DNA of 64,000 nt from assembly GCF_009914755.1 (NCBI RefSeq), contig NC_060946.1; one strand, written 5' to 3'. Below, piece by piece: positions 1 to 52,631 of this stretch. Below the pieces are notes generated by a model. It made no database searches. It was not told where the DNA came from and saw nothing but the letters and a program-made list of their open reading frames with translations. This DNA comes from the human T2T-CHM13v2.0 reference genome, Homo sapiens. The position numbers and the translations under genes were made by a program. Each line of letters opens with the position of its first letter. The first letter of the stretch is position 1.

Positions 1-1325
1 GGGGACAGCATCCACATAGGAACTGGGAACCTGCCTTCCCCTGCAGGTTCACTTACCCAACATCACCTGGTCCTTCCAGAGGGTCTGGAGGGGCCAGTGT
101 CTGCCCCTGCCCCCAGCAGTCACATGAAAGCCTCTCAGGCTATTTTCCCACAGATTTGCTGAGCCAAACTTTTCCCTCAGCTCTGTACCCCTCCTGGGCC
201 ACATTCCCATGTGTAGTCCCTGGCCACAGTCACACCTGCTTGCTTCTCAAAGATGTGTACCCAAAGCCCCGCATTTCCCACTGGGCCCAGCCTCACAGCA
301 CCTCAGCTCACTCCTCCAGGGTCTCCCTGGTCACCTGTCCTGCCATGGGGGTTGCTAGATGCTTCCTGGACACTGCCCTGGCCCAAGCCCTCATGTCCCT
401 CTTCTCCAGTGGCTCCTGCGGAACAGGGACGCCATCACATGCAGTGGTTGCCATCCCAACCCACCGGCACTTGGGGCCCACATGTTTTTTTCATCTTGCG
501 CTCAAATTCCCATTCAATCACGTGTGCTCCTTCGCAGGGTGAACGGGACAGACCCCTGGCTGTGGGCACAGCTCGTCTCCCCGGGCTCTCACAGACTCAC
601 TAACTCTGTCGTCCCCGAAATCCCCCATGGGCCTGAACTCTGCTTCACTGACCTCAAATCCATCCATACGCTTGTCATTTGTGCCTAGGCAGACCACAAC
701 CTCTATGAGGTCACTACCTATTCTCATCCACCTCCACAGGTGTCTACGAGTGGCCAGGGCTCCCTAGGTGAAGGACTGACAGCCTCTGTGAGCTATAGGG
801 CCAAGCCCCAGGTCCTCCCCAACCCCCTTGCCTCACACACAGTCTGGGTCATGGAACCTCCAAGCTGGATGACAGTTCTGAACAGGGCAGCACCCACATT
901 ACCGTAAGTCCCAGGCCTCTGTGTCTTCAGCTCCTTCCTTAGCACTGGGCCCTGCAGAGTGGGGGTGAACCGGGCCACTGCAGAGGCCTCACGACTCCAG
1001 CTCTTCAAACCAGGGCCGAGCACAGAGCCTCCAACACCAGAGAACTTGTGACACCTCCACCACTGGTGGGGAGTCTGGCCAGCCCAGGCCACATGCCTCA
1101 TTCTGACACACAGCCACACCCCACTCCCACAAGCCAGGCTAGTCTGCAAAGCCAGGGGCCAGGCCAGGCTGGAGGCTGATCTCTGCCTCCCTCAACACAG
1201 GGGCTTCACTCTGCCTGAAACTAGCCTCTGAGTCACCTGCAGCTGGGCCCAGCCAGCCCCTTGCTTTGCCAGGCGCAGACACGCACTCCGGGCAGGGGAA
1301 GGGAATGAACGAGCACAGCCAGTAC

Positions 1326-1412
1326 TTGGTAGGTGTGGAGGGCCTGGAGGTTGGGCTGCCGGGGGCTGTGGTGGGCACTGGAGACACAGAGTCGGTAGTG
1401 CAGCACCTCCAG
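1326..1412 (-). pseudogene. SMPD4P1: SMPD4-like exon (LEVLHYRLCVSSAHHSPRQPNLQALHTYQ)
   Basis: 87 bp within ORF 1233..1709; ctctctcag acceptor, gtact donor. Confidence 0.88.
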
Positions 1413-4359
1413 CTGAGAGAGTGAACAGAGAGAAGCCGGAAGAGGCAGAAGAGAAAAGCATGAGAGGACAGGGTGGTGAAGGAGAGACATGGTACCGGAC
1501 ATGGGAGGGGGAAGTGGAGAAAGAAAGCAATGAGAACGAGCCCAGAAGTGAGGAGAAAAAAACAACAAAAGCATGGTCAGTGACCATCCAAACAACTGCA
1601 GTCCCAGCAGCTGTGACCAGCGCAGCACCCTCCTCGGCAGCCAGGCCAGAGCTGTGACAGCACTCTCCTCAGCCTTGGAGGCTGGGGGCGGATAGACCCT
1701 CCAGGTCACCTGGGTGGCCTCTCAATGTCGCTGGGGCCTAAAGGCCTCTCCAGCTCATTGGAAGGGCCCAACTCACTGCCCTTCCAGATGGGACCCGCTC
1801 TCCCCAGTGACTCTGAGGCCACACCGTGTGTGCCATGTGCACACCACAGCCCTTCAAGTACCCAGGGCCTTCTCTCTGGGACATGCTGTCAGCCACCAAG
1901 GCCTCAAGATCCTGAGGCCCAGAAAATAAACTGGCAAAGCATGTTCTAGGAGGAGGACTCTGCCTAGAGAAGACACATATGTAATTGACTGGATTTCCCT
2001 GGGTTGTTTTGAGAAATTTATCAAATTTGTATATGACATGATCAATTCCTATGTCTAAAACCCAATCAATGTCCCCTCCATGAGTGGATCTCTCTGAGAG
2101 CTGAGGATGAGGACAGGTCCCCAAGGGTAGCACAGGCTCAGGCCCCCAGGCCCTGCCCTCCGCACTCCCCCAGCCTGGAGGTCAGCCGAGGTGGTGTGTG
2201 CATCAGCTCTGACTCCAGGAGGCAACCTCTCCTACCGCATCAGGAACTCCCACCCTCCAGATATGGAGGGCTCCCAAGGGCAGGAGCCCCCGAGGACCTG
2301 GCCACAGCCACACACACCCAGAGGCAACAGGAAACTGAGGCTAAGCTGGCCCCCAGCCAGGACCCTCCAATCTACCACCCTGCAGCGCTGCAGCCTCCGA
2401 AGCACCCCTTCGGCCCAGCATAGCCAGAGCTGGCCTGGTGCATATCCTGCCCCGTGAGCGCCATGCCTCCTGCCCAAGTAGCACGACCACTGGGCTCCAC
2501 ACAGGAGACATCAGAACACACCTGCTAGATGTCACAACACGCAGAGCAGGGCGGGAAGGAGCAGGGCAGAGAGATGTTGCCCTTCACAGCCTTCCTCTGT
2601 GCCAGACCTAGGGCTCAGGCAGGAAACAGACACACAGTTCTCCAGTGCGTCTCTGCCCTTGCCTAAGGAACACGGTGGCTTGTGGGGCCATTGGCCATCT
2701 TTATGGCCCACGGGGCCACCAGGGAGCAAGCATGCACCTCGGATTCAACCAGGGTGTGGAGGGCAACCCTGGGAGCCTCACTTCCTGCATCTGAAAATAA
2801 GAGCTAGCAGAGACAGGCAGGGATTTCTGTATGGCAGGAGCAGCATAGGCCTGGGCAAGCGGCAAAGGGCCAGGGGCCTTGGGGGCCCCGACCTCCACAG
2901 CTGCCTTTCTCTGACCCCCACCCACCCAGTTTTCTCACGTTTTGTTTTTTGCCTCAACTGGAAGAGGCAAAAAGTGGAGCATCTCTGGGCACTTCGTCCC
3001 ACCACTGCAAGTCATTCTGAGCAGGACTCACGCAACCCAAGGTCTGGCCAAGAGGAAGCGAACATTGAGAAGAGGGGAAAGGCACCTCCTGCCCTCTGCA
3101 GGGACGACGCCTTGCCAGTTCCCCTGACCCATGAGGACACAGAATCCTCACAGGTGACAGCCCAGAAGAGCCTTTCTGGCTTGCCCTTGAAAGTAGGTGT
3201 GTTTCCACTCACTCAGTAGGCAGAACCAGCAGATAGGAAGGTGACACAGTGCAGCGGCCCCTGCCCCTGCCAGGTCAAGCCACATGCAAGAGCGCTGAGC
3301 AAGTGTTCTAGGGCGCCAGGGAGAAGCGGGGCCCTAGGAACCAACCAGCCCCCCAGGCACCAGCCAGGCATATGCAGTAAGTCTGCTCTGGAAGCGGGAA
3401 GGGCACTGCAGGCTCTTTGTGACTCAGGAGGCCCAAGATGGGGTCCCCAACTTTTCCTTGTGCTCCTTCCAGGTGATGCTGAGGGTGAGGATTTGGGGGA
3501 ACCTATGCTCTGAGAGAGCCTTCACATGGCAAAGCATGGGGCCACAGAACTGGCTGCAGAGGCTGTGGCAGAAACAGACCCACAGCTCTTCTCCAGAACC
3601 GGAGGAAAAGTGACAGGAGGCTCTTCTGAAGTTTAACTCCATCACCCACAGATCCTTCATTCTGGATGAAGCCTTCTGGAACTTTGTCAGCAATAAAGGC
3701 AAAGTCTCCCATGCATAGACGCCACGGGCACCGGACTACAGGATGTGTGCCCAGGGCATGCTGCCTAGAGAGAGAGTGGGGAGAGGCGAGGCGGAGGGGG
3801 AGGAAGCAGGCCAGGCTGCTTGTAGGAGGGCGCCAGGCCCCACACACCATGAGTATGGCGGCTTGCTCATGCTCTGGAGGAGGTGGGGGAGTGGGGGGCA
3901 GACAAAGGAGGCTAACTATGGTGCCACTATGGTGGGCATGGGTCTGCCCTGGGCCATCACTTCATGGGAAAGCACAAAGGCACTGCTGATGGTGGAGGAG
4001 ACAGACGAGAACGCGGCTCCCAGAGGCATTGCAGCTCCCCCACCCCCACAGCAAAAGTGCCACAACCTCATCTGTTCCTGTTGCCAGGGAGGGGGCTCCG
4101 GAAGCTGCACAGGAAAGGCCCTGGAGAGGCCAGACCTCCAGGCCTCAGTGTCCACATATCAGGGTGCAATGCCACCTGCTCCTCATCGGGAACTAGAGAA
4201 CTATGCCCACTTCTTATTCAGCTTCTGAATGAAGGGTGGGTGGTGGATTTCTGCTTCCCACCATCCGGTCTGTGAAAACTCACTCAAATGCAGGATAAGA
4301 AGCAGCAGGCTGAGCATGGTCAGAAGCAGGAGGTGGGAAGAAAAACTATGGAAACCTAC

Positions 4360-46029: not shown

Positions 46030-47275
<1,246 letters not shown>

Positions 47276-47451
47276 CCTTAGTACTGTTCCCCTTGTAAAG
47301 ATGGATAAATGGAGGCACCATGCATACTGTACGGAACCCGCCCAGGCAATGCAACCTGGGATAGCATGCCCAACGTGCCCCCGTGGAGAGCAGTGCAGAC
47401 CCAGATACCACACCTACCCTGCTTCCTTTTCTACCACTCTGGCCATACTCC

Positions 47452-48111
47452 CACTGTGGGCTGCCCTCCTACCGCTCTCCCCGCTGCAGTCTCCATGGCC
47501 ACCACCAACCTCAGCTAAGCGAAACACGTTGCCACACGCTCAAGCCTACCGCATCCAGCAGGCGTCTTACCCTTCTCCTTCTCTAAGCTGGGCACCGAAC
47601 ATCAGGGTATGCAGACACAGGAGAGCCCGGTAATGGCCTGATTCCTTGCCCCCTCAGCCGGCTTTATATAGGGAGGTTTTGCAACTGAGTGCCTGGACTA
47701 CATATTCTGATTGGATGAGAGAAAACGTCTAGGCCTACTCTGATTGGACTTTATTGTCATGTTCTGATTGGTTGCCTTAAGAATTGCTCTCATCCAATCA
47801 GAACATGATAATAAAGTCCAATCAGAGTAGGCCTAGAGGTTTTTCTCCCATCCAATCAGAACATGTAGTTCAGGACCCAGTGGTGTAACTTCCCTATATA
47901 AAGTATGCTGAGGGGACGTCAGGCCATTGCAGATTCTTTACTGTTTGCCTCCTCAGCGGCTCTTGCCCGGCTTAGAGGAGGAAGAGGCGAAAGGAAAGAC
48001 ACCTCCCTCACTCTGGCCTAAGGCACCACGGCTCACCTCACTGCTGTGGTTGGTGGTTGCTGCCACGGAGACTGAAGAGCCACCGGAGTAGTAGGAGGGT
48101 GGCCCACAGTG
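47452..48111. promoter_or_regulatory. Inverted repeat with bidirectional TATA/CCAAT promoter architecture and two head-to-head first-exon-like arms
   Basis: Left arm 47452-47771, 22-bp spacer, right arm 47794-48111. ATTGG at 47710, 47743, 47767; CCAAT at 47794, 47818, 47852, all in a CCAATCAGA context. TATATAAAG at 47670-47662 (minus) and 47895-47903 (plus). TCAGGCCATT downstream of each TATA. The palindrome is directly visible; promoter function is inferred. Confidence 0.75.
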
Positions 48112-48249
48112 CAGGAGCTGCTCAGTGCCCGGCTTAAAGGAGGAAGAGAAGGGGAAGACCCCTGTCCCAAGCTGGAGGCTGGAGCTCTTGGCACCTCGGC
48201 TGGCCTCTCTGCGATTGGTGGCTGTAATGAAGACTGCAGCCCCGCCTGA

Positions 48250-49646
48250 GCATTAAGAAGGAGAAAATAGTTTTTGGGTAAATGGAGGGAGAAAAGAGAG
48301 TGGCAGGTGGAAGGAGTACAGAGAGAGTAGTAAAGGGGGGAAAACACGGGGGCGAGCAAGAGGGAGAGGAAGTTTTGCGAAAAGAGAGTGGGGAGAAAAG
48401 TTTTTGGGTAGATAGAAGGGGAAAAGAGGGTGGCAAGCAGGAGCCATAAAAGATGGTGGGGAAAAGAGTGGGGGAAAAGTTTTTGGGTAGATGGAGGGGG
48501 AAAAGAGGGTGACAAGCAGGAGGGGGGAAGGAGGGTTGGGAAAACGACGACGGAAAAATAGTTTTGGGGGGCAGATGGAGGGTGAAAAGAGGGTGGCGTG
48601 TGGGAGAGGGGCGGGAGTGGGGAAAAGAGGTTGTTGAGCAGGAGCAGGGAGAAGGCTTTGTGAAAAGATGGTGAGGGGGGAAAGACAAGAAAAAGGTTTT
48701 TGGGTAGATGGAGGGGGAAAAGAGGGTGGTGAGTAGGAGGGGGCAAGAGTGGTGAGCGAGGGAGACAAGGTTTTCCAAAAAGACCATGGAGGAAAATGTT
48801 TTTGGGTAGATGGAGGGGGAAAAGAGGGTGACAAGCGGGAGAAGGAAAAGGGGTGGTGAGCGGGAGGGAGAGAAGGTTCTGCGAAAAGAAGGAAGACAGA
48901 AAAGAAAGATGGTGCAGAAACAAAAAACGTGGGTAAAAAGCTTTTGGGCAGATGGAGGGGAAAAAGTGGCAAGTGGGAGGAGAAGAGAGGGTGGCGAGAG
49001 GGAGGTAGGGAAGAGGATTGGGAAAAAGATGATGGGGAAAATAGTTTTGGGGTAGATGGAGGGCAAAAAGAGGGTGGCAAGCAGGCTAGGGGAAAGAAGA
49101 GGGCGAGCGGGAAGGAGGAAGGGCTTTGTGAAAAGACGGTGGGGAAAAATTTGGGGGGTAGATGGAGGGGGGAAGAGGGTGGCGAGCCGAAGTGGGGAGA
49201 AGGCTTTATGAAAAGACAGTGGGGAAACGTTTTTGGATAGATGGAAAAGAGCGTAGCAAGGAGGGGAAAAAAGACGATGGGGAAACAGTTTTTGGGTAGA
49301 TGGAGGGGGCAAAGAGGGTGGTGAGTAGCAGGAGTAGGAAAAAGGCTTTGGGAAAAGATGGAGGGAAATGTTTTTGGGATGATGGAGGAGCAAAAGGCTA
49401 ATGAGAGCGGAAGGGGGAAAAAGAGGGTGGGTAAAAACTGTGGGGAAGTTTTTGGGTAGATGGGGAAAAGAGTGGTGAGTGGGAGAGTAGAGAAGGTGTT
49501 GTGAAAAGACGGTGGGGAAAAAATGATGGGGAAGAAGTTTTGGGGTAGATGGAGGAAGAAAAAGGATGGCGAGAGGGAGGGGTCCGAAGGCGGTCAGGAA
49601 AAGAAGGCAGGGAAATAATGATGGGGGAGAAAGCTTTTGGGTAGAT
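48250..49646 (+). repeat. Degenerate purine-rich tandem array, ~15 copies of a TTTT(T)GGGTAGATGGAGGGGGAAAAGAGGGTGG-like motif
   Basis: Motif copies near 48271, 48401, 48480, 48562, 48697, 48799, 48942, 49045, 49150, 49230, 49289, 49371, 49449, 49538, 49635; spacing ~60-145 bp; plus strand strongly depleted of C. Confidence 0.9.
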
Positions 49647-52631
49647 CTTTTTCTGATTTTTAAATCAGATTATTTGCATTTTTGTTTTTGAGTAGTTCTT
49701 GTCTTCTTTATATATTTTGTGTATTAACCCCTCGCCTGATGCATAGTTTGCAAATACTTCCATTCTCTGGATTATTTCTTCATTCTATGGATTGCATCCT
49801 CTGCTTTGCAGAAGTTTTGAAGTTTAATGTAATTCCATTTGTCTATTTTTGCTTTTTCTGCTTGTGCTTTTGATGTCTATTTGAAAATTCCTTGTCCTAA
49901 CCAATTTCCTAAAGTATTTTTCCTATGTTTTTTTCTCTAGTAGTTTCATAGTTTCAGATCCTATATTTAAATCTTTATTTTGAGTTGATTTTCTTACATG
50001 GTAAGATAACAGTCTAGATTTATTCTTCTACCTGTGGGTGTTGGGTTTTCCTAGCACAGTTTATTGAAGAGATTGTCCTTCCTGAATGTGTGTTCTTGGT
50101 GCCTTTGTTAAAATTGAGTTGACTGTAAATGTGTGAATTTATTTCTCAGTTCTCTATTCTGTTTCATTTGTCTATGTGTGTCTGTCTGTCATTTGTCTAT
50201 GTCTGTCTCTCTGTCTCTCCCCGCCCCCCCCCTTTTCTTGCCAGTACCATGCTGTTTTGGTTACTATAGATTTGTAGTATATTTTGAAATCAGTGTGATG
50301 CCTCCAGCTTTTTTCTTTTTATTCAACATTCTTTTGTTTATCTGAAGATATTTTGCATTTCCATGTGAATTTTAGGCTGGTTTTTTTTGTATTTCTATGA
50401 AGAACATCTTTTGTAATTTAACATGGATTGCACTGACTCTGTAAGTCATATATTGGGTGACACAGATATTTTAACAATATTCTTTCTAGTGCATGGACAT
50501 AGGATAGCTTTCTATTTACTTGCATTTGCTTTAATATCTTTCATCAATGTGTTTTATAGTTTTCATTGTGGGATCTTTTGCCTTTTTGGTTAAGTTTATC
50601 CCTAGGTATCTTTTTTTGGTGAGTACTGTTAATGAAATAGCTTTCCTGATTTTTCTTAGGTGTTTCACTATTGGCTCATTGGTGTGCTACTCATTTTTGT
50701 ATATTGATATTGTGTCTTGCAATTATACTAAATTTATTATTTCTAGTAAGATTTTTAGTGGAATCTTTAGGGTTCTCTATTATATGATCATGTTACCTGA
50801 AGACAGAGAAAATTTGACTCCTTTTTTTCCAGTTTGGATGCCTTTTATTCATTTGTCTAATTGCATTCTCTTGCCTAATTGCTGTAGTGAGGACTTCCAG
50901 TACTATAATGAACAAAAGTGGTAAAAGTAGCCACGTTTGTTCCAGATTTTAGAGGAAGAGCTTTTAAATTTTCCCCATTGATTATGATGTTAGCAGTGGG
51001 TTTGTCATATATGGCCTTTATTGTGCTAAGTAATGTTTCTTTTGTATTCATTTTGTTGAGTTTTTATCATGAAAGAATGTTGAATTTTATTTTTTTCAGC
51101 ATCTACTGAAACGATTACATGGTTTTTGTTGTTGATTTGCTGAATATGATGTATCACATTTATTTGTTTATTGAATCATCCTCATTTTCCTCAGATGAAT
51201 CTTGCTTGATCATGGCAGATTATCTTTTTATTGTATTGTCAAATGCAATTTTCAAGTATTTTGTTGAGGATTTTTTTGCATCTGTGTTCATCAGGGATAT
51301 TTGTCTGTGGTTTTCTTTTTGTGTTGTGTCCTGGTCTAGTTTTTGTACCAGGGTAATGCTCGCCTTATAGAACAAGTTTGAAAGTATTCCTCTTCATATT
51401 TTGGGGAATATTTTGAGTAAAATCGGTATTCGTTGTTTTAAAAATGTTTGGCAGAATTCAGCAGTAAAACCATGATTCGTGTGTTTTTCTTCAATTGACA
51501 GGAGACTTTTTATTACTGCTTTAATTGCATTACTCATTATTCGTCTCTTCAGGTTTTTTATTTCTTTATCATTCTATCTTGGGAATTTGTTATATGTCCA
51601 GAAATTTATTCATTTCTCCTACATTTTTCAATTTGTATATAAGTGTTTTTAGTAATCTCTTAGAATACTTTGTATTTCTGTGTGATCAACTGTAATGTCT
51701 CCTTTTTCGTCTATCATTTTCAGTTTTTCTTAGTCTAGTTAAAGCTTGTCAATTTTGACTTTTTTCCAAAAACAAAAAAACCCCAGCTTTTGGTTCCGTT
51801 TGACTTTTTGTATTTTTTTTAGTTTCAATTTTTAATTTTTTTCTAATCTTTATTATTTTATTTCTACTAATTTGATTTTTCTTGTTTTTCTCATTACTTG
51901 GTGTATTGTCAGGTTGGGTATTTGAGATCTTTCTACTTTTATACTGCTGTGTTGACTTCTTTACCCTTATATAATTATCTTTCTAGTTTTTCTTTTTTTG
52001 ACTTAAAGTCTATTTTATCAGATATAAGTGTAGCTACTCCTGCTTTTTTGTTTCCATTTGTATGGGATATCTTTTATCATCCTTTCATTTTCAGTCTATG
52101 TATGTCTTTATAGGTGAAGTGAGTGTCTTAGTCAGTATATAGTTGGGTCTTGTCTTTTAATCCACTCAGCCACTTTGTCTTAATTGGAGAATTTAATTCA
52201 TTTATATTCAAGATTATTACTAACAGGTAAAAACATACTGTTGCCATTTTTTACTTGTTTTCTAGTTGTTTTGCTACTCTCTTTTTTTGTTCTTTCTCCT
52301 TTCCTTTCTCTTCTCTCCTCTCTCTCTCCTTTCTTCCTTTCTTTTCCTTCCTCTTTCCCTTCCTTCCTGTCTTTATTTGTAGTGAGGTCATTTTCTCTGG
52401 TAGTGTGTTTTAATTTCTTGCTTTTTTATTTTTAGGGTGTCTATTACTGATTTTTGTTTTCTGGTCAGCATGAGGCTAAACAACATAATTATAACGAGTT
52501 ATTTTAAACTGAAGAAAACTTAACCTTGATTGCAAAGAACAAAAAAGAGAGAAACAAAAAAAACTAAAAACATTTACCCTGTAACTCTATCCCCCGCAAC
52601 ACACACACATTTTGTATTTAGATGTCTTTCA

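What the first reader, a model, noticed from the sequence alone, without database searches (positions are those of the whole stretch)
47452..48111. Mirror-image bidirectional promoter built from a 660-bp inverted duplication
Seen: two ~320-bp arms around a 22-bp spacer. Reading outward, each arm carries three CCAATCAGA boxes (spacing 24 then 33/34 bp), TATATAAAG 43-44 bp after the last box, and TCAGGCCATT with its A 31-36 bp from the TATA. A MYB-type CAACTG sits at 47682-47687. Established: CCAATCAG is the NF-Y core, and divergent TATA/CCAAT promoters exist (e.g. histone H2A/H2B pairs), but they are not usually literal palindromes. Inference: one promoter plus first exon was duplicated head-to-head, giving two divergent Pol II starts near 47634-47640 (minus) and 47926 (plus). 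I recognise no protein-coding gene or TE family here.
Basis: partly seen in the sequence, partly recalled or inferred. Interest (0 to 1): 0.85.

Follow-up and report, generated by a model that had tools for sequence, protein, structure and literature searches.

The report
Palindromic REP522-type repeat with promoter boxes
The 660-base mirror-image stretch is real, but it is one old copy of a dispersed human repeat family that was already palindromic, most likely the known REP522 repeat whose copies act as promoters in cancers and early embryos.

Summary
Two arms of about 320 bp (47452-47774, 47791-48111) face each other across 16 bp, and each carries three CCAATCAGA boxes, TATATAAAG and TCAGGCCATT at the stated spacings.

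The palindrome was not made at this locus. The same genome holds 39 other loci on 13 chromosomes with the same mirror layout, at 71-87% identity. Arm-to-arm identity within a copy (0.836) equals that between copies (0.833), so the inversion predates the spread.

The family is most likely RepeatMasker's REP522:
- One paralogue (L036, chr15) holds the exact miR-5701 primer sequences, and a preprint places miR-5701 in Rep522.
- REP522 is described in print as about 1.8 kb and largely palindromic.
- It is also reported as strongly enriched among cancer-activated CAGE promoters.

I could not run RepeatMasker.

Each arm has histone-H2B-like grammar: CCAAT, about 29 bp, octamer, about 16 bp, TATA. 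The window copy keeps 6 of 6 CCAAT boxes and both TATA boxes but has lost both octamers. I found no sign of purifying selection, and the hub table lists no gene here.

Verdict: a known repeat with latent bidirectional promoter capacity. Low interest.

The parts
47452..47774 (-). Left arm of the palindrome. The arm is cut off at 47452 compared with fuller copies.
47775..47790 (.). 16-nt unpaired centre of the palindrome (CCTTAAGAATTGCTCT), with a near-identical sequence in most family copies.
47791..48111 (+). Right arm: CCAATCAGA boxes at 47794, 47818 and 47852, a decayed octamer (AGTGGTGTAA, 47879-47888, where relatives read ATTTGCATAA), TATATAAAG at 47895-47903 and TCAGGCCATT at 47919-47928.
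47718..47848 (.). Near-perfect central hairpin (inner arms 53 nt, 94% complementary). It is the paralogue of the MIR5701 hairpin. The 19-nt homologue of mature miR-5701 lies at 47751-47769 (+) with one mismatch, a CpG-to-TpG change at 47760.
48112..48270 (+). Second tandem copy of a unit of about 162 bp from the outer right arm (23-nt match 47964-47986 / 48126-48148, 96%). The chr5 relatives L037 and L042 have one copy.
   Evidence: (D13)
48250..49700 (+). Degenerate G-rich tandem array (core GGGTAGATGGAGGGGGAAAAGAGGG, 16 copies of family D1). It lies on the right side only here and is shared in line with the palindrome at most related loci.
49700..51873 (+). Non-array segment that stays collinear with the palindrome and array at other loci (for example L026/L033 to 51316/51331, L021 to 51873, L037/L042 to 50945). 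This shows spread by segmental duplication of a block of at least 4.4 kb. From recall, the ORF translations at 50547-51370 look like old LINE-1 3' sequence.

Best explanation
The stretch is one old, half-truncated copy of a dispersed, ancestrally palindromic primate repeat, most likely the family that RepeatMasker calls REP522. The family core is a head-to-head pair of promoter cassettes. Each cassette holds three NF-Y-type CCAAT boxes, an octamer about 29 bp after the last box, a TATA box about 16 bp further on and an initiator-like TCAGGCCATT. This is the grammar of a histone H2B promoter. The pair formed once, before the family spread. It was then copied together with a G-rich array and further flanking DNA by duplication into pericentromeric, acrocentric and low-copy-repeat regions, LCR22 among them. 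Family members can fire as promoters when heterochromatin fails (cancers, 8-cell embryo). Read through, their centre gives the miR-5701 hairpin. The window copy keeps six CCAAT boxes and two TATA boxes but has lost both octamers and most CpGs. I infer that it is a normally silent, latent bidirectional promoter. I do not think it is a working gene start made at this locus.
For: Shown:
- The palindrome and its motifs are real.
- 39 other loci on chromosomes 2, 5, 7, 9, 10, 13, 14, 15, 17, 18, 20, 21 and 22 match, each on both strands (85 matches, 40 of 72 candidates scored).
- All 39 align over the core, and 36 have both arms.
- Same-arm identity between copies is 0.888 (left) and 0.855 (right), against 0.836 for left versus right within a copy and 0.833 across copies.
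- Collinear homology runs to 51873 on the right side only.
- Fuller copies are palindromic over about 2-4.9 kb.

Link to REP522:
- The miRNA-specific parts of the miR-5701 primers printed in a preprint match only L036 among 42 loci, side by side, at the place homologous to 47751-47769.
- Another preprint says hsa-miR-5701 overlaps the Rep522 repeat.
- REP522 is described as about 1.8 kb, largely palindromic and interspersed, and as strongly enriched among the most cancer-activated CAGE promoters.
- A large REP522 region lies at the BAGE locus on chr21. BAGE loci sit on chromosomes 9, 13, 18 and 21, and the family has copies on all four.

Grammar:
- In 3 of 3 H2A/H2B intergenic regions taken from the same genome, CCAAT to octamer is 29-30 bp. 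In family arms with an intact octamer it is 28-29 bp.
- Octamer to TATA is 16 bp in 1 of those 3, and 16-18 bp in the family.
Against: - No RepeatMasker or Dfam run was possible, so the name REP522 rests on an indirect chain: a miR-5701 paralogue, the printed description and the BAGE chromosomes.
- The hub's list of the longest masked stretches does not include 47452-48111. That list also omits the L1-like 50.4-51.9 kb segment, so I take it to be incomplete.
- The window copy is symmetric for only 660 bp, not 1.8 kb.
- For function, nothing here shows transcription or factor binding at this copy.
- The inner core diverges from relatives as fast as the neighbouring downstream DNA (0.110-0.144 against 0.112-0.131 for 7 untruncated loci).
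- The TATA/start parts diverge faster still (0.301-0.365). Over all 55 pairs, the inner core is less diverged than the downstream DNA in only 14.
- Both octamers are lost in the window. No copy of 40 keeps all ten motifs.
- CpG observed/expected is 0.39.
- The H2B likeness is one of motif order and spacing only. Local alignments reach significance only over the octamer box.
Confidence: 0.8

Rival explanations
1. One reading: this locus is an active bidirectional Pol II promoter with unannotated divergent transcripts starting near 47634-47640 (-) and 47926 (+), at least in germ cells, early embryos or tumours.
For: All six CCAAT boxes and both TATA boxes are intact, which is true of all six boxes in only 21 of 40 copies. 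The window copy is among the most symmetric: its arm-to-arm identity is 0.917, reached by 7 of 54 cross comparisons. At family level, CAGE promoter activity in cancers and 8-cell expression are in print.
Against: No gene or transcript is listed between 45433 and 58312 in the hub table. Both octamers are lost. CpGs are depleted, as expected for a germline-methylated sequence. There is no excess conservation. No conserved ORF or exon lies downstream.
Confidence: 0.25
2. It is a transposable element: a non-autonomous DNA transposon with long terminal inverted repeats, or two inverted solo LTRs.
For: It is dispersed on 13 chromosomes. Some copies (L022, L031, L036, L039, L008/L009) share only the palindromic part with the window. 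The outer ends here read CACTGTG...CACAGTG.
Against: The palindromic spans end at different places in different copies (171-767 bp in single alignments, up to 4.9 kb in chained ones). I saw no common termini and no flanking target-site duplications in the printed ends. Many copies share more than 3 kb of one-sided flank, which points to segmental duplication. There is no poly(A) signal after the TATA and start region and no TG...CA ends, as an LTR would have.
Confidence: 0.05
3. It is a microRNA gene, a paralogue of MIR5701, whose central hairpin is processed when transcribed through.
For: The hairpin is very stable. The 19-nt homologue of miR-5701 at 47751-47769 differs at one base outside the seed.
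Against: The two cassettes point away from the hairpin, so it would need read-through from elsewhere. The stem of about 55 bp is much longer than a usual pre-miRNA. All Rfam matches are below the gathering scores and are to unrelated plant or insect hairpins. A preprint lists miR-5701 among miRNAs that merely overlap repeats.
Confidence: 0.08
4. Its relevance is structural: a cruciform-forming palindrome that promotes breakage or rearrangement in LCR22.
For: Single-strand DNA folding gives -104.9 kcal/mol, z -21. It lies in a 22q11.2 low-copy repeat (hub table).
Against: Only the inner 53 nt are near-perfect, the centre has a 16-nt spacer and the outer arms are 75-85% alike. The copy has survived for a long time, with about 12% divergence from its relatives.
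Confidence: 0.04

Closest known systems
REP522 (Repbase/RepeatMasker family, class 'Satellite/telo')
   Same: It is interspersed and multi-copy, and largely palindromic. Copies lie in pericentromeric, acrocentric and duplicated regions, including the chromosomes that carry BAGE loci. A paralogue carries the miR-5701 hairpin, which is said to lie in Rep522. Promoter use is reported from CAGE.
   Different: There was no direct match to the consensus, because no tool for it was at hand. The window copy is symmetric over 660 bp only, with its left arm cut at 47452 and the array kept on the right side only.
Histone H2A/H2B divergent promoters (H2B side: CCAAT, octamer, TATA)
   Same: The motif order is the same and the spacing nearly so. 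CCAAT to octamer is 29-30 bp in 3 of 3 H2B promoters and 28-29 bp in family arms. Octamer to TATA is 16 bp in 1 of 3 H2B promoters and 16-18 bp in the family. The octamer flanks are also alike (CCTCATTTGCATA).
   Different: There is no histone gene and no ORF on either side. Both halves are the same cassette, not an H2A and an H2B half. No homology was detected beyond the octamer box. The window copy has lost both octamers.
MIR5701 loci (chr15)
   Same: The central hairpin is homologous. The window has the miR-5701 19-mer with one mismatch.
   Different: The exact mature sequence is found only in L036 of the 42 loci held. Nothing is known about processing of the window copy.
LTR12/HERV9-type NF-Y-bound repeat promoters (recalled, not tested here)
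   Same: These are also repeat-borne CCAAT-box promoters that are silent in soma and reactivated in germline and cancer.
   Different: This is not an LTR. It has no LTR termini, no poly(A) signal and no internal retroviral sequence, and it is palindromic.

Membership tests
REP522 repeat | Largely palindromic unit | tested here: met
   The window arms align at 83% without gaps. 36 of 39 other loci have both arms. Fuller copies are palindromic over 2-4.9 kb.
REP522 repeat | Interspersed, multi-copy in the human genome | tested here: met
   39 other loci on 13 chromosomes. This is a lower bound, since 40 of 72 candidates were scored.
REP522 repeat | Unit of about 1.8 kb | tested here: inconclusive
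   The window is symmetric over 660 bp. The shared unit, including the array, is at least 4.4 kb on one side. Other copies span 2-4.9 kb.
REP522 repeat | Significant match to the Repbase/Dfam consensus (RepeatMasker call) | not testable with these tools
   No repeat library was at hand. The hub's list of longest masked stretches does not include this stretch, and it gives no family names.
REP522 repeat | Holds the MIR5701 hairpin (stated in preprint 10.1101/2021.12.09.471935) | tested here: met
   Primer parts match L036 only. L036 aligns with the window core.
REP522 repeat | Present at BAGE loci (chr21, and the chr9/13/18 paralogues) | tested here: inconclusive
   Family copies lie on chr9, 13, 18 and 21, and the papers place REP522 and BAGE there. 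No BAGE ORF turned up within 3 kb of L035, and I had no gene coordinates.
Bidirectional NF-Y/TATA Pol II promoter | CCAAT boxes and a TATA box on both strands at promoter-like spacing | tested here: met
Bidirectional NF-Y/TATA Pol II promoter | Capped 5' ends and NF-Y/TBP occupancy at this copy | not testable with these tools
   No expression or ChIP data were at hand. Only a family-level CAGE statement is in print.
Bidirectional NF-Y/TATA Pol II promoter | Transcription units on both sides | tested here: not met
   No annotated gene lies between 45433 and 58312 (hub table). The ORFs of 70 aa or more in 47000-52600 lie in the repeat array or in L1-like sequence.
Histone H2B-type promoter | Octamer ATTTGCAT between CCAAT and TATA | tested here: not met
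   The window has neither octamer. The family has it in 18 of 40 copies (left) and 5 of 40 (right).
LTR / DNA transposon | Defined termini, target-site duplication, and for an LTR a poly(A) signal after the start | tested here: not met
mir-5701 microRNA gene | Hairpin carrying the exact mature sequence | tested here: not met
   The hairpin is present, but the 19-mer has one mismatch on the plus strand and two mismatches in the 13 nt tested on the minus strand.

The most novel reading that the evidence does not exclude
The REP522 core is a fossil pair of H2B-type (NF-Y / Oct-1 / TBP) promoter cassettes, fused head to head tens of millions of years ago. It has since travelled with pericentromeric and LCR duplications as a portable bidirectional promoter that seeds cancer-testis and early-embryo transcripts (BAGE-region RNAs, lncRNAs, the miR-5701 hairpin). 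The LCR22 copy in this window still has all six CCAAT boxes and both TATA boxes. On this reading it fires unannotated divergent transcripts when heterochromatin is lost.
Probability: 0.25. Interest if true: 0.4.

Novelty: already known. Interest (0 to 1): 0.2.

Why it matters
The result explains a striking-looking palindrome as a copy of a little-studied but catalogued repeat, so it should not be counted as a new regulatory element of 22q11.2. Three findings may still be of use:
- The motif grammar of the family core: three CCAAT boxes, an octamer and a TATA box, mirrored.
- The palindrome predates the family's spread and shows no arm-to-arm homogenisation.
- The miR-5701 hairpin is simply the centre of this promoter palindrome.

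I found none of these in the 8 papers I opened of the 14 that name REP522. The primary CAGE papers (Kaczkowski 2016, Horie 2017) were not held, so these points may already be in print there.

Tried and rejected
- Rfam scan of 47300-48300: only sub-threshold matches to unrelated long-hairpin miRNA families (best MIR6288, 56 bits against a gathering score of 74). These reflect the perfect stem and are not homology.
- BAGE exon near the truncated chr21 copy L035: of 13 ORFs of 38 aa or more in 1-3400, none was recognisable. I dropped this line.
- Test for selection on the motifs: the whole inner 190 bp is uniformly about 90% like the consensus rather than box by box. It evolves at the same rate as the downstream DNA. 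I therefore make no claim of constraint.
- Test for arm-to-arm gene conversion: none seen.
- Search for transposon termini and target-site duplications: none seen.
- Homology to real H2B promoters: only the octamer box aligns. L002 and L005 against L045 beat 300 of 300 shuffles; 6 of the other 10 pairs were reached by 2 to 17 of 300 shuffles and 4 by 27 to 284. I keep this as an analogy only.
- Case-based repeat masking in the window file: none is present.
- Kaczkowski et al. 2016 could not be opened.
- A search for bidirectional promoter + CCAAT + palindrom + segmental duplication found 0 papers. A search for 'largely palindromic' + repeat + promoter found 4, and only the FANTOM5 abstract was relevant.

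Full report
**1. Observation**

The repeat finder gives four collinear inverted pairs. The inner one (47722-47774 / 47791-47843) is 53 nt long and 94% complementary, with 16 nt between the arms. The outermost (47452-47477 / 48086-48111) is 85% complementary.

A global alignment of the reverse-complemented left arm (323 nt) with the right arm (321 nt) has 248 matches, 52 mismatches and 44 gap columns. CCAATCAGA occurs six times in the 64-kb window, all of them here, three on each strand. Shuffles give 1.02 on average and never six (0 of 100).

As a single strand, the centre folds far better than shuffles. The 131-nt RNA gives -89.9 kcal/mol (z -18.3) and the 286-nt DNA gives -104.9 kcal/mol (z -21.2).

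**2. It is a family, and the family was already palindromic**

A search of the window's own assembly with the 660 bases gave 85 matches; 40 of 72 first-look candidates were scored, so this is a lower bound. Besides the window itself, the matches fall at 39 places on chromosomes 2, 5, 7, 9, 10, 13, 14, 15, 17, 18, 20, 21 and 22. Identity is 71-87%, and each place matches on both strands. Many of these places lie in pericentromeric, acrocentric short-arm or duplicated regions.

I fetched all 39 and aligned their cores with window 47614-47940.
- All 39 align.
- 36 show the full mirror layout: TATA, three CTGATTGG, centre, three CCAATCAG, TATA.
- Three (L023 chr13, L032 chr18, L035 chr21) break off after the first right-hand box.

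The head-to-head arrangement was therefore not created in LCR22.

A comparison of arms confirms this. Over 28 non-redundant untruncated copies, the left arm (reverse-complemented) is as like the right arm of its own copy (mean 0.836) as the right arm of another copy (0.833). Left arms of different copies are 0.888 alike and right arms 0.855. The two arms had diverged before the copies spread, and there is no sign of arm-to-arm homogenisation since. The window copy is among the more symmetric: its identity of 0.917 is reached by 7 of 54 cross comparisons.

**3. Extent and mode of spread**

Homology between the window and other loci continues on the right side only:
- a second copy of a 162-bp unit (48112-48270);
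- a degenerate G-rich array (about 48250-49700);
- non-array DNA at least as far as 51873.

This is seen in L021 (49264-51873), L026/L033 (48691-51316/51331) and L037/L042 (48114-50945). The translated ORFs at 50547-51370 look, from recall, like old LINE-1 3' sequence. A shared junction of palindrome, array and flank over at least 4.4 kb points to segmental duplication rather than transposition.

Some copies share only the palindromic part with the window (L022, L031, L036, L039, L008/L009). Three of them are palindromic over a much longer span, with arms reaching about 1.0 kb (L036), 1.26 kb (L031) and 2.45 kb (L039) from the centre. The window's left arm is therefore a truncated one. I saw no common termini or target-site duplications, and there are no LTR features.

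**4. Name**

I recalled the Repbase family REP522 as 'largely palindromic' and looked for evidence.

[quoted passage not shown] A preprint states that hsa-miR-5701 overlaps the Rep522 repeat (10.1101/2021.12.09.471935, passage). Another preprint prints RT and reverse primers for miR-5701 (10.64898/2026.05.26.727855, passages).

The miRNA-specific parts of those primers match exactly one of the 42 loci held, L036 on chr15. The two matches lie next to each other on the same strand. They sit at the column that aligns with window 47751-47769, where the window differs by one CpG-to-TpG change.

[quoted passage not shown] It is covered by H3K9me3 in human liver and active in Tc1 mouse liver (PMC3560060, passage). 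BAGE loci lie on chromosomes 9, 13, 18 and 21 (PMC3084872, passages), and the family has copies on all four.

This chain makes REP522 the likely name; I put it at about 85-90%. It is not a RepeatMasker call, which I could not make. The hub's list of longest masked stretches omits this region. It also omits the L1-like stretch, so I do not weigh that omission heavily.

**5. What each arm looks like**

| Motif | Copies of 40 with it intact | Window |
|---|---|---|
| Each of the six CCAAT boxes | 29-38 | all six intact |
| All six CCAAT boxes together | 21 | yes |
| TATA, left arm | 24 | intact |
| TATA, right arm | 20 | intact |
| Octamer, left arm | 18 | lost (reads TTGCAACT) |
| Octamer, right arm | 5 | lost (reads AGTGGTGT) |
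| All ten motifs | 0 | no |

I took three H2A/H2B intergenic regions from the same genome. In 3 of 3, the H2B side has CCAAT 29-30 bp before the octamer. In 1 of 3 the octamer lies 16 bp before the TATA box. In family arms with an intact octamer the figures are 28-29 bp and 16-18 bp. The flanks of the octamer are also alike.

Local alignments beat all 300 shuffles only for L002 and L005 against L045, and over little more than that box. I therefore say that each arm works like an H2B-type promoter (NF-Y, an octamer factor, TBP). I do not say that it descends from one.

**6. Is this copy functional?**

I found nothing here that shows it. The hub table has no gene between 45433 and 58312. CpG observed/expected is 0.39.

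Against the 7 untruncated loci that also keep the downstream segment, the window's p-distances are:

| Region | Window coordinates | p-distance |
|---|---|---|
| Inner core | 47692-47874 | 0.110-0.144 |
| Downstream segment | 49800-50380 | 0.112-0.131 |
| TATA/start parts | 47614-47691 and 47875-47940 | 0.301-0.365 |

Over all 55 pairs of the 11 rows, three truncated copies included, the inner core is the less diverged in only 14. The core therefore shows no purifying selection, and the parts that would hold the start sites are the fastest-changing.

About 12% divergence implies that these copies separated some tens of millions of years ago. This is an inference from usual primate substitution rates. 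It fits the statement that miR-5701 is restricted to primates.

Family-level expression is in print: cancer-activated CAGE promoters, a peak at the 8-cell stage (PMC6545021, passages), and RNA in ES cells and lung tumours (PMC11353194, passages and tables; PMC6925957, passages).

**7. Verdict**

It is wrong on origin and on novelty. The stretch is a truncated copy of a catalogued palindromic repeat.

My best reading is a normally silent, latent bidirectional promoter (confidence 0.8 for family copy plus latent promoter). I give about 0.25 to this particular copy being active somewhere.

The motif grammar, the age of the palindrome relative to the spread, and the identity of the miR-5701 hairpin with the promoter centre are small additions. 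I did not find them in the papers I could open: 8 of the 14 that name REP522, with further searches. The primary CAGE papers were not available, and they may already contain these points.

Noticed in passing
window 48250-49700: A degenerate G-rich tandem array follows the right arm. Its motif is GGGTAGATGGAGGGGGAAAAGAGGGTG, with 16 copies of a 47-nt family. TRF resolves only a 79-bp period at 48385-48595. The array travels with the palindrome at most related loci. I did not examine its G-quadruplex or R-loop potential.
   Followed up: partly
window 47955-48270: The outer right arm holds a tandem duplication of about 162 bp (23-nt match at 47964 and 48126, 96%). The chr5 relatives L037 and L042 have a single unit.
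   Followed up: partly
L039 (G000:C22:32665883-32672181), L031, L036: Three relatives are much longer palindromes, with arms reaching about 2.45 kb, 1.26 kb and 1.0 kb from the centre. Their outer arms share no alignment of 250 bp or more with the window's array. L036 carries the exact miR-5701 sequence.
   Followed up: partly
L023, L032, L035 (chr13, chr18, chr21): These three copies lose the right arm at the same point, after the first CCAATCAG box, and continue with a shared unrelated sequence. This is one rearrangement that was later copied between the chromosomes where BAGE loci are reported.
   Followed up: partly
window 50547-51370: ORF translations here look, from recall, like old LINE-1 3'-end sequence. 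The segment is shared with related loci at about 88% identity, yet it is absent from the hub's list of longest masked stretches.
   Followed up: no
window 47324-47452: The left flank beyond the arm is shared only with L002 (chr22:22.54 Mb) at 72%. No locus anywhere in the assembly matches the 660-bp palindrome at more than 87%, so this part of LCR22 has no recent paralogue.
   Followed up: no
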